DNA of 50,979 nt from a phage, in sequence record PZ445502.1; one strand, 5' to 3'. How positions within the stretch are numbered: position 1 is the stretch's first letter; each line of letters opens with the position of its first letter. Below, one piece after another: positions 6,256-45,368 of the stretch. The position numbers were made by a program, and so were the translations under genes. Below the pieces are notes generated by a model that did not search any database, had not been told where the DNA came from, and worked only from the letters and a program-made list of their open reading frames with translations.

Positions 6256-7227
6256 ATGGCTAAAAAATACGATGAATTAGATGCTACCATTGTAGCAAAT
6301 CATTTACAGGTTCAGGGCGTTAAGGGTGATGCTTCTGATATGGGTATTTGGACCGCTCAGGAGCTACACAAGATCCGTTCAACGGCATACGAGAAAGAGT
6401 ATCCGGCAGGTTCCGCACTTCGCGTATTCCCTGTAACAAACGAGCTTTCTGATACTGATAAGACTTTTGAGTATCAGACTTTTGATAAGGTTGGCTACGC
6501 GAAAATTATCGCCGACTACACCGACGATCTGCCGACTGTGGACGCGCTGATGACTTCTGAGTTTGGCAAAGTGTTCCGCCTGGGTAACGCTTTTCTGATC
6601 TCCATTGATGAGATTAAAGCAGGTCAGCGAACTGGCAAGAGCCTGTCAACTCGCAAGGCTAACGCTGCGCAAAATGCGCATGATCAGTTGATTAACTTCC
6701 TGGTGTTCAAAGGTTCCAAGCCTCATAAGATCGTTTCCGTTTTCGATCACCCTAACCTTACGAAAATTGTTTCTAAAGGATGGATGAGCCAGGATGGAAA
6801 CACCAAGTTCCCTGATGTGGCAAGCGATGAACTGGAGGCCGCAATCGAAACGATCGAGGAAGTAACAAAAGGCCAGCACCGCGCGACTAGCATCCTGATC
6901 CCGCCGTCCATGCGCAAAGTCCTGACGGTTCGAATGGAAAATACCACTGAAAGTTATCTGGAATACTTCCAGAAGCAAAACGGCGGCATCACTATCGACT
7001 CTATCGCAGAGCTTGAGGATATTGACGGCAAAGGTACTAAAGGTTGCTTGGTTTACGAAAAAGATCCAATGAACATGAGCATTGAGATTCCAGAAGCGTT
7101 TAACATGCTTCCGGCGCAGCCAAAAGACCTTCATTTCAAGGTTCCTTGCACTTCCAAGTGTACTGGCCTTACGATTTACCGTCCGTTTACGATGGTGCTT
7201 ATTACTGGCTTGAAAAAGTCAGTTTAA
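6256..7227 (+). CDS. major capsid protein
   Basis: 323 aa; GGAGG SD; flanked by strong terminators; size and position fit an HK97-fold coat protein. Confidence 0.65.
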   Translation: MAKKYDELDATIVANHLQVQGVKGDASDMGIWTAQELHKIRSTAYEKEYPAGSALRVFPVTNELSDTDKTFEYQTFDKVGYAKIIADYTDDLPTVDALMTSEFGKVFRLGNAFLISIDEIKAGQRTGKSLSTRKANAAQNAHDQLINFLVFKGSKPHKIVSVFDHPNLTKIVSKGWMSQDGNTKFPDVASDELEAAIETIEEVTKGQHRATSILIPPSMRKVLTVRMENTTESYLEYFQKQNGGITIDSIAELEDIDGKGTKGCLVYEKDPMNMSIEIPEAFNMLPAQPKDLHFKVPCTSKCTGLTIYRPFTMVLITGLKKSV

Positions 7228-8818: not shown

Positions 8819-9209
8819 TTTAATGTTAGCGGCAAGAAAGGCGCTGTCGGCGGAATATGAATCACGATTCAAGATCGCCTATGAAAACGTTGATTTTGTT
8901 CCGCCTGGTGATGGTTCGATGTGGTTAAAATTTGACTACATGGAAGCCGACACAGATCGCATATCTCTTGATAGAAAATGCGTTTCTTATATCGGATTGG
9001 TTCAGGTTGGAATTGTTATGCCTCCTGGCGGCGGCACTGATAAAGCGCGTTTGCTGGCTAAAGAGATTGCGAGATTTTTCTATGATGGTAGAATGTTTGA
9101 AACTGGCTATATTAGCGAGGGGGCAAACGTCCACGCATTACTAAAAAGTGAAACAGGTTGGTTCTTACCGATCCGTTTCAGTGTTAGGCTTGACACAAAG
9201 GAGGAATAA
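8808..9209 (+). CDS. tail completion / tail terminator protein
   Basis: 133 aa; directly upstream of the major tail gene. Confidence 0.4.
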   Translation: MHYDLMLAARKALSAEYESRFKIAYENVDFVPPGDGSMWLKFDYMEADTDRISLDRKCVSYIGLVQVGIVMPPGGGTDKARLLAKEIARFFYDGRMFETGYISEGANVHALLKSETGWFLPIRFSVRLDTKEE

Positions 9210-41121: not shown

Positions 41122-41152
41122 TGCTATCTCCTGTGCGGTTCGTTTCGATGTG

Positions 41153-41200
41153 TGTAATGTACCCGATCAGGTGGCCTGAGTTTTAACAAAAAGTGCTATT
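41153..41200 (-). promoter_or_regulatory. motif-class promoter (motif, 22 nt, TACATT) at the head of the minus-strand early operon
   Basis: minus strand AATAGCACTTTTTGTTAAAAC then 22 nt then TACATT. Confidence 0.5.
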
Positions 41201-41754
41201 TGACGGTTAGCGCCAGGATTGCGATCGAAATAATCAAAAGTAATCATTCGTAATCAAATCACGTCAAAATGATGATTGCCTTTGCAAATTTGATGAGAAA
41301 AGTAATCACGTTTAATCATTGGTTGCAGGGGAGATAGTGAAACCCTCCCCTCTTGCCTCACTTTTTCGCCTGGCTGTCAGTGGTTGTTGTCTTTTGTTCA
41401 CCCCTGTTACCGATTTCAGGCGGCGTGTTTCCGCGCGGTTTTCCGGTGTAGCGAAAACGGAAAAAACAAAGAAAATCCTCTATAATACATTGAAAATAAA
41501 GATTATTTATTTATATATATCTATAATGTTTTCTTTTTGTTCTCACTGTTACAGTGCTTTTTGTTGGTTATGGTGTGGTTGTGTGTGGGTATATATGGAT
41601 AGTTGCGCGCGCGGCGGATTGCATATGTATATATACTTTTTCCGGCGGATTGCGTTAACAGAGTGAACAGAAAAATAACAGCCGCGAAATCAATAACTTG
41701 CGCATGATTTTGTAGTTTTTCGATATTGGTAACGTTTTGAATACAACAAAAACA

Positions 41755-41783
41755 TTGACACGCACCAAATAGCTTTTATAATG
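41755..41783 (+). promoter_or_regulatory. sigma70-like promoter (TTGACA-N16-TATAAT) for the plus-strand early operon
   Basis: consensus hexamers at canonical spacing about 30 nt upstream of ATG 41814. Confidence 0.55.
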
Positions 41784-41813
41784 CGCCAACAGTCAACAAC
41801 TGGAGGAAAGGAA

Positions 41814-42278
41814 ATGGAACAGAAGACCACTAAGGACTATTGCGATTGGCTTCGCGAGCTTGGTCGCCGCCTGGCTAGTGGCGATATTGAAGAGTATAAA
41901 ATGTCACTAATTGACCTGGCCGGAATGTTAAGCGGTGACGACTGCTACAAGATCACGCGCAGTTCATCCTACAGCCGGACCATTATCAACCGCGTTCCAG
42001 AAGTAAGGGCCGCAGGTCGGGTAAGCATCAAGGTAGAGGAAACGGAAGATGATAAATTTTACGTTTTCCGCATGGTCCGCGAATCGAAAAGGAAAATCAT
42101 CACACCCGAAGAATTGCCAGCCATCAAGGCAAGGGCGATCAAAAAGTTTGCCGATCGCATACTGGCAGCAATCCCGAATATCGTTGACCTGGAAGGGGAT
42201 AAACTGGCTGGGGCTTGCGAGGGCGTAAGCCGCTACCAGGATATGATCCGCGAAATCATCAAAGAGGAAGAGCAATGA
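41814..42278 (+). CDS. hypothetical protein, first early gene
   Basis: 154 aa from ATG 41814 with GGAGG SD. Confidence 0.45.
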   Translation: MEQKTTKDYCDWLRELGRRLASGDIEEYKMSLIDLAGMLSGDDCYKITRSSSYSRTIINRVPEVRAAGRVSIKVEETEDDKFYVFRMVRESKRKIITPEELPAIKARAIKKFADRILAAIPNIVDLEGDKLAGACEGVSRYQDMIREIIKEEEQ

Positions 42279-42547
42279 AAAAGGCATTAATCAGCGTTTT
42301 GGCGGCAATGGCATTCCTGACCGGATGCAAAGAAGATGGCGCGCATGTTGGCAATGTGCAGATGGCTAACCCTGGCGATGACTACAGCGTAAGGGAGCTA
42401 TTCACCGCTGACGGTTGCACCGTTTACCGATTCTATGACGATCGCACTGTTTACTTCACCAACTGCAAGGGCGCTACTAGCTGGGAAGTGTCGAAAAGCA
42501 ATGGCAAAGGCACGAAGACAGAACATATGACCGTCGAGACAAAATAG
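42275..42547 (+). CDS. small lipoprotein (second lipoprotein; Llp/Cor-like candidate)
   Basis: 90 aa; signal peptide with lipobox LTGC; ATGA overlap with the upstream gene. Confidence 0.5.
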   Translation: MKKALISVLAAMAFLTGCKEDGAHVGNVQMANPGDDYSVRELFTADGCTVYRFYDDRTVYFTNCKGATSWEVSKSNGKGTKTEHMTVETK

Positions 42548-42619: not shown

Positions 42620-42805
42620 ATGGCACGTCGCATCACCAAAGACCTTAAAGTCCTGAACAAAGAAAACGTAGTTAAAATCCTGGTTATCTGGGGCTACAAC
42701 GAAGAAACAGCAAAGCAGAAGGTAGAGGCAGGTTATGACCTGGCTGTAAAAGCAATGCCAAACGACGACGCCAAAGGCATTGCAAACTATGTAGCGTTCT
42801 TTTAA
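42620..42805 (+). CDS. hypothetical protein
   Basis: 61 aa; GAGGA SD. Confidence 0.4.
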   Translation: MARRITKDLKVLNKENVVKILVIWGYNEETAKQKVEAGYDLAVKAMPNDDAKGIANYVAFF

Positions 42806-42820
42806 TTAGCGGGTGAATAA

Positions 42821-43006
42821 ATGAAAACGAAATTAGTCCATAAATCAGAAATCAAGATCGGCGATACTGTGATTCACAACGGCGAGCTTAGAACGGTTGG
42901 CAAAGAGTCAATAAGCCACGATGAATTTATGGGGATCTTGTTGTTCGGTGACTCTTATCGTCTTGGTTACAAGATGGTTGAGCTTGTGGAAGAGGTAAAA
43001 TTCTAA
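42821..43006 (+). CDS. hypothetical protein
   Basis: 61 aa ORF. Confidence 0.4.
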   Translation: MKTKLVHKSEIKIGDTVIHNGELRTVGKESISHDEFMGILLFGDSYRLGYKMVELVEEVKF

Positions 43007-43050
43007 ATAGCACTTTTTGTTAAAACTCAAAAGCGATAACCAGGCATAAT
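43005..43050 (+). promoter_or_regulatory. motif-class promoter (motif, 22 nt, CATAAT)
   Basis: shares CCAGGCATAAT with the promoters near 42543 and 37653. Confidence 0.5.
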
Positions 43051-43252
43051 ACACACATAGACGGGCGGCAAGGATTGCTGCGGGAGAGGAGTAACGCAGG
43101 GGCTTGATCGAAGTGTCAGGATTCCCAACCGTGAGGCCAGAACTATCACACTCGCCACCAGGCAGAACGCTAGATAGGTCACTGAGCTGAGGCTACCGAC
43201 GAAGTGAAGCCCGTCACCAAAGATTAAACGGTTATTTATGTTAAAGGGGTTA

Positions 43253-43435
43253 ATGATGGATAAGATCATCAAAATGAGCGAAGTCAAGCCGGGAATGATG
43301 GTTAAGTTTGCTGGCAAATATCGCCTAGTGCTGGATAACTGCCGCAAAGAGAACATTCTTACCATTCGTGTAAATGGCAAGGCGCAGCTATTCGCCCCTA
43401 GCGCAGATATTGACGTTGAAGTTAGAATTAAGTAA
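43253..43435 (+). CDS. hypothetical protein
   Basis: about 60 aa from ATG 43253 with AAGGGG SD. Confidence 0.4.
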   Translation: MMDKIIKMSEVKPGMMVKFAGKYRLVLDNCRKENILTIRVNGKAQLFAPSADIDVEVRIK

Positions 43436-43450
43436 TTAGGAGGAAACACC

Positions 43451-44344
43451 ATGTTAAAACTTGCTGACATTAAATTCCCGATCACCTTCGAATCTCGCGG
43501 AATTGGTCATTACATTTTTACTGATGAAAAAACATGCCATAAGGTTGATTTGCATAGCTACAAGCGTGCGCCATCAAGCATGGAGATTGATCACTTCATT
43601 GATGCGCATAACAAGCACTACAACTCGCTTAAAGACTACGGCTACGCAATGCCAGGATATACCAGCTTCCACTACAAGCCATACAAGGGCCAGGTGTTAC
43701 CAGTTCGCTCACCGGAACGCGCAGAGATTCCGATGGTCAATATGAAAACCTGCGACTACAAAAAGCTGTGGTGCTTAAGTGTGGACAATATCAAGTATCC
43801 GATCACGTTCCACACAACTGGTAACTCAACGATTCGCTTCACATCACGCGACAATGGCGTTTATAGCGATGGTCAGAAATCAGGGTTGAAAGTTGATTTC
43901 TTTGTCAATGCTCACAACGATTTCAATCCGCACAACGAAAAAGATAAAGTGTACTACGTGGAAGACATTACAAAACACTTATTTGGAGAAACTCCATTCG
44001 GCGGCGGTAAGACGTCAATTCAGCAAATCATTGGCGATGAGATCCACAAAGCGGCTGCCGAAATGAAAGCGCCTGGAGGCTGGCGTATTGACAAGAGCGC
44101 CTTTGCAAATCAAGAAATCGTAACGCAGGGCGCAATTGAAGATATGCCAGTTGCAGCCACGCTAAAAGGAGTCCGGCTTGATGATGGTGTGTGGTTTGAA
44201 GTAACGGCTACACCAAAGACGTTCGAGATTCATGATGACGTTGTTATTCTTCTGCTTCACTACGGCGGCGCAAAAAACCGCACCGTTGCAGGTGAGATCA
44301 GCATCAAGCGCGGAACGATGGTTAAGTGGAAGGTCAAAGTGTAA
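43451..44344 (+). CDS. hypothetical early protein with internal tandem duplication
   Basis: 297 aa; segments around residues 5-60 and 110-165 are clear repeats (IKFPITFESRG... versus IKYPITFHTTG...). Confidence 0.5.
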   Translation: MLKLADIKFPITFESRGIGHYIFTDEKTCHKVDLHSYKRAPSSMEIDHFIDAHNKHYNSLKDYGYAMPGYTSFHYKPYKGQVLPVRSPERAEIPMVNMKTCDYKKLWCLSVDNIKYPITFHTTGNSTIRFTSRDNGVYSDGQKSGLKVDFFVNAHNDFNPHNEKDKVYYVEDITKHLFGETPFGGGKTSIQQIIGDEIHKAAAEMKAPGGWRIDKSAFANQEIVTQGAIEDMPVAATLKGVRLDDGVWFEVTATPKTFEIHDDVVILLLHYGGAKNRTVAGEISIKRGTMVKWKVKV

Positions 44345-44417: not shown

Positions 44418-44636
44418 ATGTACATTAGCAAGAAGATGAAATGTGTTTCCGTTAACTATGCTTGCTCTGGCATGTTCAAGCCTGGCGAAATCTATACGGC
44501 GCAAAAACTGAAATCATCAACCGGATCTTTTTACGTGAGCAATAATAAGGGGCATCGCATGTTCCTGAACGGCGGCGAAGGCACTAAGGTTATGGCGCAC
44601 GCTATGGTAATTGCTGAATTTGAGGAAGTGAAATAA
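44418..44636 (+). CDS. hypothetical protein
   Basis: 72 aa from ATG 44418 with AAGGAG SD. Confidence 0.4.
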   Translation: MYISKKMKCVSVNYACSGMFKPGEIYTAQKLKSSTGSFYVSNNKGHRMFLNGGEGTKVMAHAMVIAEFEEVK

Positions 44637-44828: not shown

Positions 44829-45368
44829 ATGAAAAAATACACTTTCGAACTATGGGGCAAGAAATACGAATTAATGACCAGCAAGCCGATTGTTATCGTT
44901 GATCTGGATGGTACGCTATCGGACGGATCGCATCGTTTGCACTTGCTGCCAACCGAAAACTTGCACCTTACGGAATCGTGGAGCGAATTTAACAGAGCAG
45001 CCGCCGGAGATTCACCGATTAAAAGCACGATAGCGGTTATTAACGGTTTATGGGTGTCGGGATTTGCCATCGTCATCTTGACCGGACGTAGCGACGAGGT
45101 TCGCTATAAAACCTGCAAATGGTTGAATGAGAACGGTGTGAAGTTTGACGAAATCATCATGCGCCGCCAGGAGGACAACCGAAAGGATACGGTTATTAAA
45201 GAAGAAGCCTTGCGCGCCATTGGCCTGGACAGCATTGTTTGCGCCTTTGACGATTCGCCGAACGTGGTTAAGCACTTCCGCAGCCTGGGGATCACAACCT
45301 ATCAGGTCACGGAATACGACAAGCCACACGCTCACCTGCAATCTCACGGAGTGGAGTGTTTAAAATGA
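44829..45368 (+). CDS. HAD-superfamily phosphatase (5'-nucleotidase or polynucleotide-phosphatase-like)
   Basis: 179 aa; HAD motif I VDLDGTL, motif II ILTGR, motif IV FDDSPN. Confidence 0.55.
   Translation: MKKYTFELWGKKYELMTSKPIVIVDLDGTLSDGSHRLHLLPTENLHLTESWSEFNRAAAGDSPIKSTIAVINGLWVSGFAIVILTGRSDEVRYKTCKWLNENGVKFDEIIMRRQEDNRKDTVIKEEALRAIGLDSIVCAFDDSPNVVKHFRSLGITTYQVTEYDKPHAHLQSHGVECLK

What the first reader, a model, noticed from the sequence alone, without database searches (positions are those of the whole stretch)
43451..44344. Early 297-aa protein built from an internal tandem duplication
Residues around 5-60 (DIKFPITFESRGIGHYIFTDEKTCHKVDLHSYKRAP...IDAHNKH) and 110-165 (NIKYPITFHTTGNSTIRFTSRDNGVYSDGQKSGLKVDFFVNAHNDFNPH) are clearly related. 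It is one of the largest products of the plus-strand early operon, which otherwise encodes proteins under 100 aa. Repeat-domain early proteins in virulent phages are often host-factor binders or inhibitors.
Basis: seen in the sequence. Interest (0 to 1): 0.5.

Follow-up and report, generated by a model that had tools for sequence, protein, structure and literature searches.

The report
Orphan phage protein with repeated module
A T1-like coliphage gene of unknown function really does contain two copies of a small protein module plus an unrelated end domain; relatives carry one to three copies, but nothing known resembles it and it looks dispensable on a laboratory host, so it is a modestly interesting orphan.

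Summary
ORF 43451-44344 (+, 297 aa, strong RBS) contains two homologous ~65-aa modules (residues 1-68 and 108-175). Only this module is repeated. The rest is two linkers and an unrelated ~73-aa all-beta C-domain.

The window is a Warwickvirus-like T1-type coliphage, and the gene equals SECphi27 gp30 (PHROG 7116, function unknown). T1, TLS and most relatives have one module plus the C-domain (161-190 aa). This clade has two modules and one metagenomic relative has three. Each domain also occurs alone, always at the same syntenic early locus.

The copies share about 27% identity, and each is closer to single-copy modules elsewhere than to its partner. The event is therefore old or recombinational.

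All segments are under purifying selection (dN/dS 0.12-0.38). A loop in m1 is hypervariable, and linker 1 is the most constrained segment.

Three isolates carry nonsense or frameshift alleles, so the gene is accessory.

The best guess, which is inferred and not shown, is a non-enzymatic multivalent binder of a host or defence target. Interest is moderate to low.

The parts
41755..41782 (+). Perfect sigma-70 consensus promoter (TTGACA, 16-nt spacer, TATAAT) at the head of the plus-strand block that contains the gene
   Evidence: 12 of 12 matches. Its function as the early promoter is inferred, not tested.
43438..43443 (+). Shine-Dalgarno AGGAGG, 7-nt spacer to the start codon
   Evidence: sequence read directly
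43451..44344 (+). Whole CDS, 297 aa plus stop. It is a PHROG 7116 / VOG7646 family member and the orthologue of SECphi27 gp30, T1 QEG04329.1 and TLS gp06.
43451..43654 (+). N-module copy 1 (m1, residues 1-68). This is the diverged 'm1-type': it lacks the NPxN motif and has HNxHY...DYGYAMPGY instead.
   Evidence: HMM hits; AF2 pLDDT about 75-88; alignment
43520..43585 (+). Hypervariable loop of m1 (residues 24-45), with several distinct allelic types and length variation among close relatives
   Evidence: Entropy 0.97 bits against 0.39 for the equivalent m2 stretch. dN 0.335, dS 0.89, dN/dS 0.38.
43655..43771 (+). Linker 1 (residues 69-107). AF2 predicts it disordered, yet it is the most conserved segment. 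Its middle, after QVLPV, is where insertions occur in relatives, including the whole third module.
   Evidence: pLDDT below 50; entropy 0.22; dN/dS 0.12; insertion sites
43772..43975 (+). N-module copy 2 (m2, residues 108-175). This is the canonical type, resembling the single module of T1, TLS and SH2 (FPITF...FTS...HNxxNPxN).
   Evidence: AF2 of the module alone gives pLDDT 95.7, pTM 0.84.
43976..44119 (+). Linker 2 (residues 176-223), predicted mostly disordered with one helix. It is variable in length and sequence across the family.
44120..44341 (+). C-terminal all-beta domain (residues 224-297), with motif IE[DN]MPxGA ... IEVHDD ... E.NIKRGT. It also occurs as a standalone ~80-aa protein (related to phrog_10425).

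Best explanation
SHOWN. The gene encodes an accessory protein specific to T1-like (Drexlerviridae) phages. It is built as beads on a string: one to three copies of a ~65-aa beta-meander-plus-helix module, flexible linkers, and a ~73-aa all-beta C-terminal domain. The window's version has two modules. m2 is the canonical copy found in all relatives. m1 is an old, diverged extra copy with a hypervariable loop. The gene is under purifying selection but can be lost on a laboratory host.

INFERRED. The protein has no enzymatic signature and most likely acts by binding. The conserved C-domain and conserved linker motifs would provide a constant contact or oligomerisation function. The N-modules would be recognition units for a host or anti-phage-defence component. 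Extra modules would add avidity or a second specificity, and the variable m1 loop would track variation in the target. Expression is probably early, from the consensus sigma-70 promoter at the head of the block.
For: Architecture and copy-number series:
- NC form in T1, TLS, SH2 and JLBYU16; NNC here and in about 168 clusters; NNNC in P0001.
- Further two-module forms in distant lineages (P0150, P0156, P0157/P0162).
- N alone (P0167), C alone (P0159, P0169, P0172), and N fused to another C-terminus (P0161).
- Sources.

Same syntenic locus in every case.

Folded domains joined by disordered linkers.

No catalytic signature: the HDD triad is not conserved family-wide, and there are no Pfam, NCBIfam or PADLOC hits.

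Selection: dN/dS is 0.12-0.38 in all segments. The m1 loop has about 5-fold higher dN, and linker 1 is the most constrained segment.

Accessory status: independent nonsense or frameshift alleles occur in damhaus, haarsle and tonnikala.

Promoter and RBS.
Against: - No partner, phenotype or expression data exist; the binder role rests on architecture and on exclusion of alternatives.
- dN/dS in the variable loop is below 1 and dS is also raised there. The variability may reflect old recombining alleles rather than an arms race.
- Three conserved glutamates and an arginine in the C-domain could still form an active or metal site.
- Published escape-mutant and trigger screens with SECphi27 and Bas phages, which carry the gene, never implicated it.
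Confidence: 0.4

Rival explanations
1. It is a nucleic-acid-binding regulator. The small beta-barrel-like domains (Tudor/Sm/KOW/OB-like) would bind phage or host RNA or ssDNA, and tandem modules would increase the footprint.
For: Weak, sub-threshold POT1 (ssDNA-binding OB) matches occur in 8 of 60 family members (best E 0.018). The best, non-significant structural neighbours are Tudor, chromo, Sm and SH3-type barrels.
Against: - Net charge is near zero here (+3 over 297 aa; modules 0 and -1).
- pI ranges from 4.5 to 8.5 among homologues, so there is no conserved basic surface.
Confidence: 0.15
2. It is a small enzyme. The conserved acidic, His and Arg residues of the C-domain (or the HNxxNPxN motif of the module) would form an active site acting on a host molecule.
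For: Near-invariant E230, E259, E282 and R287 in the C-domain, and conserved H155, N156, N159, P160 and N162 in m2-type modules.
Against: - No similarity to any enzyme family by sequence, profile or fold.
- The HDD triad varies (DSE, DCN, NGN, SDG).
- The NPxN motif is lost in m1-type modules, which are nevertheless under purifying selection.
- Domains of 65-75 aa joined by long disordered linkers are atypical for enzymes.
Confidence: 0.08
3. It is a decaying or functionless ORF. The repeat would be a leftover of recombination in a hypervariable accessory region with no selected role.
For: Three independent disrupted alleles in cultured isolates. The family is tiny, with 43 representatives among 1.84 billion proteins.
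Against: - Purifying selection acts on every segment (dN/dS 0.12-0.38).
- The gene is retained at the same locus across Tunavirinae, Tempevirinae and more distant T1-like contigs.
- It has a strong RBS.
- The domains are confidently foldable.
Confidence: 0.05
4. It is a virion or tail-fibre component, as annotated in phage phiE31-2.
For: One GenBank record labels the orthologue 'tail fiber protein'.
Against: - It lies in the promoter-proximal block of small non-structural genes, far from the structural module (see the SECphi27 map).
- It has no similarity to any structural family.
- All other records call it hypothetical.
Confidence: 0.02

Closest known systems
PHROG 7116 / VOG7646 (uncharacterised Drexlerviridae protein; T1 QEG04329.1, TLS gp06, SECphi27 gp30, pSf-1 gp38)
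   Same: It is a true member. Residues 108-296 match the 173-position profile end to end (E 1.8e-75), and residues 1-~70 match its first third again. Orthologues are 96-98% identical in tunus, XY3 and ExeQuayColi, and the syntenic position is the same.
   Different: The family profile and most members (T1, TLS, SH2) describe a one-module protein of 161-190 aa. The window protein carries an additional diverged module plus a conserved linker. No member has a known function.
Gp54 of phage Bas11 (66-aa six-stranded beta-barrel, trigger of CapRelSJ46; PDB 9AXB; PMC11578894)
   Same: It is a small beta-rich accessory protein of unknown native function from the same group of T1-like phages, and it acts (as a trigger) purely by protein-protein contact. 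This is a useful precedent for how such proteins meet host immunity.
   Different: There is no sequence or profile relationship: hhalign probability is 0.3% against the SECphi27 homologue gp19. Gp54 is encoded in the other, minus-strand early block, is single-domain, and was not among the top 50 Foldseek PDB hits for our model.
Tudor / chromo-barrel / SH3 / Sm-like small beta-barrels (e.g. Spindlin-4 4UY4, Tip60 chromobarrel 4QQG)
   Same: These are the only structural neighbours found. They share a partial overlap of a 3-5-strand beta-meander, over 45-60 aligned residues.
Copy-number-variable tandem domain arrays in viral accessory proteins (general phenomenon; from my own knowledge, e.g. Ig-like repeats of T4 Hoc, gene or domain 'accordions' in poxviruses)
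   Same: The number of a small module varies between close relatives (1, 2 or 3) at one locus, with insertions at one linker position.
   Different: The copies here are old and diverged (27-55% identity), not recent amplifications. The module is unrelated to Ig-like folds. No selective agent is known.

Membership tests
PHROG 7116 (Drexlerviridae early protein, unknown function) | Significant full-length match to the family HMM | tested here: met
   E 1.8e-75, 253.7 bits. Residues 108-296 cover profile positions 1-173, and a second stretch is reported.
PHROG 7116 (Drexlerviridae early protein, unknown function) | Conserved genomic position in the early block between the DUF7174 gene and the PNKP-type phosphatase | tested here: met
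   Window neighbours. The same order is seen in ExeQuayColi, JLBYU16, T1, TLS, SH2, SECphi27 and metagenomic contigs.
POT1/CDC13 OB-fold ssDNA-binding domain (PF02765) | Score at or above the Pfam gathering threshold (29 bits) | tested here: not met
   12.7 bits, E 0.11 for the window protein. Only 8 of 60 members give any sub-threshold hit, with best E 0.018.
Gp54(Bas11)-like six-stranded beta-barrel | Sequence or profile homology to Gp54 and its SECphi27 homologue gp19 | tested here: not met
   hhalign probability 0.3% for the C-domain profile against gp19. PDB sequence searches with both domain profiles find nothing.
Known anti-phage defence components (PADLOC-DB) | Match to any PADLOC model | tested here: not met
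   0 families at E up to 1.
Characterised phage triggers or anti-defence proteins of SECphi27/Bas phages | Identity with a gene implicated experimentally (MCP, Gp54/gp19, Gp77 Erf-like, portal, 128-aa Mokosh determinant) | tested here: not met
   Our gene is SECphi27 gp30. The implicated genes are gp57 (MCP), gp19, gp77, gp52 and the only 128-aa CDS, gp13.
   No experimental data were found. This needs pull-downs and genetics.

The most novel reading that the evidence does not exclude
The ~65-aa module would be a previously undescribed fold-level recognition domain unique to T1-like phages. Its copy number (1-3) and hypervariable m1 loop would be tuned by selection to bind, multivalently, an oligomeric host immunity or takeover target. 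The conserved 'disordered' linker 1 would be a short linear motif that engages a second partner. On this reading the protein is a new class of modular anti-defence or host-takeover adaptor.
Probability: 0.2. Interest if true: 0.6.

Novelty: new variant of a known kind. Interest (0 to 1): 0.35.

Why it matters
T1-like phages (SECphi27, the BASEL Bas01-13 set) are now standard tools for dissecting bacterial immunity, yet most of their early genes are blank. This work turns one 'hypothetical protein' into a defined domain map:
- two orphan domains, one of which is confidently foldable
- a natural series of 1-, 2- and 3-module alleles
- natural knock-outs
- a hypervariable loop
- an unexpectedly constrained linker

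That gives a ready-made set of alleles and constructs for testing whether the gene modulates host range or counter-defence. If it does not, the result is simply a tidier annotation of an accessory orphan.

Tried and rejected
- Pfam, NCBIfam and PADLOC scans of the whole protein, of each domain and of 60 family members gave nothing above threshold.
- PDB sequence searches with the whole-family, N-module and C-domain profiles found nothing.
- Proteins with 6-8 'stretches' in the exhaustive search (P0160, P0163, P0171) looked like giant module arrays. They are unrelated repeat proteins whose weak matches add up, and my module and C-domain HMMs do not hit them.
- The 375-aa 'NCNC' protein of Shigella phage 2019SD1 is a perfect 187-aa repeat with a frameshifted C-domain. 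It is most likely an assembly or sequencing artefact, so I did not use it as evidence.
- I considered that the 128-aa Mokosh type I determinant of SECphi27 might be a fragment of this gene, because P0134 is a 128-aa linker-plus-C-domain fragment. I rejected this: SECphi27 has the intact 297-aa gene (gp30), and its only 128-aa CDS is gp13 on the other strand.
- The split genes in damhaus and tonnikala are not an ancestral two-gene state. They are a single TGG-to-TAG change and a frameshift.
- An internal GTG start producing a separate m2-C protein is unlikely, because there is no convincing SD upstream of V111.
- Positive selection on the m1 loop is not demonstrated (dN/dS 0.38, with dS also raised).
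- The C-domain profile shows no homology to the N-module, to Gp54/gp19, or to the two small upstream neighbours at 42821-43006 and 43238-43435.
- Rfam found nothing, and repeat scans of the gene region and the operon head found nothing notable.
- Literature searches for the family identifiers and for T1-like transcriptomes found nothing.

Full report
**1. What is there**

The ORF 43451..44344 on the plus strand encodes 297 aa. An AGGAGG Shine-Dalgarno at 43438-43443 lies 7 nt before the ATG.

The window is a T1-like siphovirus of Drexlerviridae/Tempevirinae, closest to Warwickvirus phages. The region is 96% identical at the nucleotide level to phage tunus and about 95% to ExeQuayColi, XY3 and SECphi27. 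Every GenBank record calls the orthologue 'hypothetical protein'. One record says 'tail fiber protein', which is almost certainly a misannotation. In the RefSeq numbering of SECphi27 the gene is gp30.

**2. The repeat is real**

- Aligning residues 1-105 against 106-297 gives a Smith-Waterman score of 67, against 27.7 +/- 4.6 for shuffles (z 8.5, 0 of 2000).
- PHROG 7116 is a 173-position profile of unknown function. It covers residues 108-296 end to end (E 1.8e-75) and matches a second stretch.
- As a non-circular control I built an HMM only from single-copy modules of other phages. It hits the window protein at 1-68 (41.5 bits, E 7e-15) and 109-172 (79.1 bits, E 1.3e-26). Shuffled m1 reaches at most 5.8 bits.
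- At the DNA level almost nothing remains: 21 nt at 76% identity, offset 321 nt.

**3. Anatomy**

AF2 with a 60-sequence family alignment gives three folded units joined by low-confidence linkers:

| Segment | Residues | pLDDT |
|---|---|---|
| m1 | 1-68 | about 75-88 |
| linker 1 | 69-107 | below 50 |
| m2 | 108-175 | about 90 |
| linker 2 | 176-223 | below 50, with one helix |
| C-domain (all-beta) | 224-297 | about 80 |

The module modelled alone, with an alignment of 40 diverse module copies, reaches pLDDT 95.7 and pTM 0.84. It forms a beta-meander followed by a helix.

Conserved module features are FPITF, FTS and HNxxNPxN. m1-type copies lack NPxN and instead carry HNxHY...DYGYAMPGY.

The C-domain has near-invariant E230, M232, P233, A236, E259, E282 and R287. 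Its eye-catching HDD triad is not conserved across the family.

**4. Family and architecture series**

An exhaustive HMMER search of 1.84 billion representative proteins finds only 43 clusters. The real ones come from ~50-kb T1-like phage genomes or contigs. With HMMs for the two domains I classified 219 fetched proteins:

- 168 are N-N-C, like the window.
- 34 are N-C (T1 161 aa, TLS gp06 188 aa, SH2 168 aa, JLBYU16 190 aa).
- One is N-N-N-C (P0001, 374 aa).
- Distant lineages also have two-module forms (P0150, P0156, P0157/P0162).
- The module occurs alone (P0167, 66 aa).
- The C-domain occurs alone at about 80 aa (P0159, P0169, P0172; these also match phrog_10425).
- P0161 joins a module to a different C-terminal region.

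All of these lie at the same syntenic position, in the early block that begins with a DUF7174 gene and contains a PNKP-type HAD phosphatase.

Apparent 6-8-copy proteins (P0160, P0163, P0171) are spurious. The 375-aa 'NCNC' protein of phage 2019SD1 is a perfect repeat with a frameshift and is probably an artefact.

**5. History of the repeat**

m1 and m2 share about 27% identity. Each scores higher against single-copy modules of other lineages (P0165, P0144, SH2-like, P0161) than against its partner. The extra middle module of P0001 is an m2-type copy at about 55% identity.

Single-module proteins with an m1-type module also exist (P0133, P0165). The arrangement therefore reflects an old duplication, or recombination between diverged alleles. 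It is not a recent in-place copy.

All length variants, including the third module, are inserted at one place: the middle of linker 1, just after QVLPV.

**6. Selection**

Across 164 two-module proteins, the m1 loop (about residues 30-43) is hypervariable. Entropy is 0.97 bits for residues 24-45, against 0.39 for the equivalent part of m2. Linker 1 is the most conserved segment at 0.22 bits.

Nei-Gojobori estimates on 21 coding sequences give the following dN/dS values:

| Segment | dN/dS |
|---|---|
| m1 core | 0.22 |
| m1 loop | 0.38 (dN 0.335, dS 0.89) |
| linker 1 | 0.12 |
| m2 | 0.19 |
| linker 2 | 0.28 |
| C-domain | 0.23 |

Everything is under purifying selection. The loop's variability comes with raised dS, so it looks like old allelic types being exchanged, and positive selection is not shown. 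A 'disordered' linker with the strongest constraint suggests a binding motif, or a region that folds on a partner (inference).

**7. Dispensability**

Three cultured isolates carry simple knock-outs of the fused gene:

- damhaus has TGG to TAG at W107.
- haarsle has a stop at codon 52.
- tonnikala has a frameshift in m2.

The gene is therefore not needed on E. coli K-12, which is typical of accessory genes.

**8. Function**

The C-domain profile is unrelated to the module, to the two small upstream neighbours tested, and to the solved Gp54(Bas11)/gp19 barrel.

Net charge is near zero here, and pI ranges from 4.5 to 8.5 across homologues. This argues against a conserved nucleic-acid-binding or DNA-mimic surface.

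Published work on SECphi27 and Bas phages implicates other genes: the MCP and Gp54 for CapRel, the Erf-like Gp77 and portal for RAZR, and the 128-aa gp13 for Mokosh I. No paper mentions this family, and no T1-like transcriptome was found.

'Early' therefore rests on the perfect sigma-70 consensus promoter at 41755-41782 and on the gene's position.

**9. Verdict**

- My best-supported model is a non-enzymatic, modular, multivalent binding protein with accessory function (confidence about 0.4 for the mechanism; the architecture itself is secure).
- Rivals are a nucleic-acid binder (0.15), a small enzyme (0.08), a functionless remnant (0.05) and a virion component (0.02).
- The sequence family is already in databases as 'unknown function'. 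What is new is the domain map, the 1-3 copy series, the variable loop, the constrained linker and the natural knock-outs.
- Interest is moderate to low (0.35). It would rise if the module proves to be a new recognition fold used against host immunity.

Noticed in passing
window 41755-41782 (+), within the 660-bp gene-free region 41122-41780: There is a perfect sigma-70 consensus promoter (TTGACA-16-TATAAT) between the divergent minus- and plus-strand blocks. The AT-rich intergenic region also has short direct and inverted repeats (for example 41228-41251 and 41300-41323).
   Followed up: partly
window 44418-44636 (+), 72-aa ORF just downstream of the gene: The ORF matches computationally designed 'Cake' beta-propeller proteins (6TJH and others; whole-sequence E down to 4e-21, with no single stretch passing on its own), via residues 19-56. 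It looks like a single PQQ-like propeller blade motif in a tiny phage protein, which could only form a propeller by oligomerising.
   Followed up: no
window 44829-45368 (+), 179 aa: The protein annotated in relatives as 'polynucleotide kinase' matches only the HAD phosphatase domain of PNKP (PF25109, E 8.6e-21). No kinase domain hit was seen, so it may be a phosphatase-only protein.
   Followed up: no
window 42275-42547 (+), 90 aa: This is a DUF4884 protein with a lipoprotein signal and lipobox (MKKALISVLAAMAFLTGC), encoded early. It is a candidate envelope or superinfection-exclusion-type lipoprotein. The first gene of the block (41781-42278) is DUF7174, and 42620-42805 is DUF7421.
   Followed up: no
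window 43007-43237: There is a 231-nt gap with no plus-strand ORF inside the otherwise tightly packed operon. Relatives annotate a minus-strand ORF here (ExeQuayColi CDS0077), which is probably spurious. No repeats or Rfam hits were found.
   Followed up: partly
L031 (damhaus), L013 (haarsle), L030 (tonnikala): Independent inactivating mutations of the orthologue occur in three Danish wastewater isolates grown on K-12: TGG to TAG at W107, a stop at codon 52, and a frameshift in m2. In GenBank these are annotated as two separate genes.
   Followed up: yes
L006 / L015 (Shigella phage 2019SD1, gp57, 375 aa): The gene is a perfect tandem repeat of a 187-aa unit whose C-domain is frameshifted, in a 53-kb 'circular' record that is larger than its relatives. 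This is likely an assembly or sequencing artefact rather than a real whole-gene duplication.
   Followed up: partly
L029 (SECphi27 NC_047938.1) 6629-7015 (-) and 8850-9047 (-): gp13 is the only 128-aa CDS, so it is presumably the Mokosh type I determinant of Stokar-Avihail et al. gp19 is the Gp54(Bas11) homologue. Both lie in the minus-strand early block. The window should carry orthologues in its own minus-strand block (about 34-41 kb), which I did not examine.
   Followed up: no
L024: About a dozen GenBank records named 'Campylobacter phage' (UNVERIFIED, host C. jejuni) are ~50-kb Hanrivervirus-like genomes 80-83% identical to this coliphage gene. The host attribution looks doubtful.
   Followed up: no
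L026 (phage phiE31-2, XDJ03808.1): The orthologue is annotated 'tail fiber protein'. There is no supporting similarity and the genomic position is wrong for a tail gene, so this is probably a propagating misannotation.
   Followed up: partly
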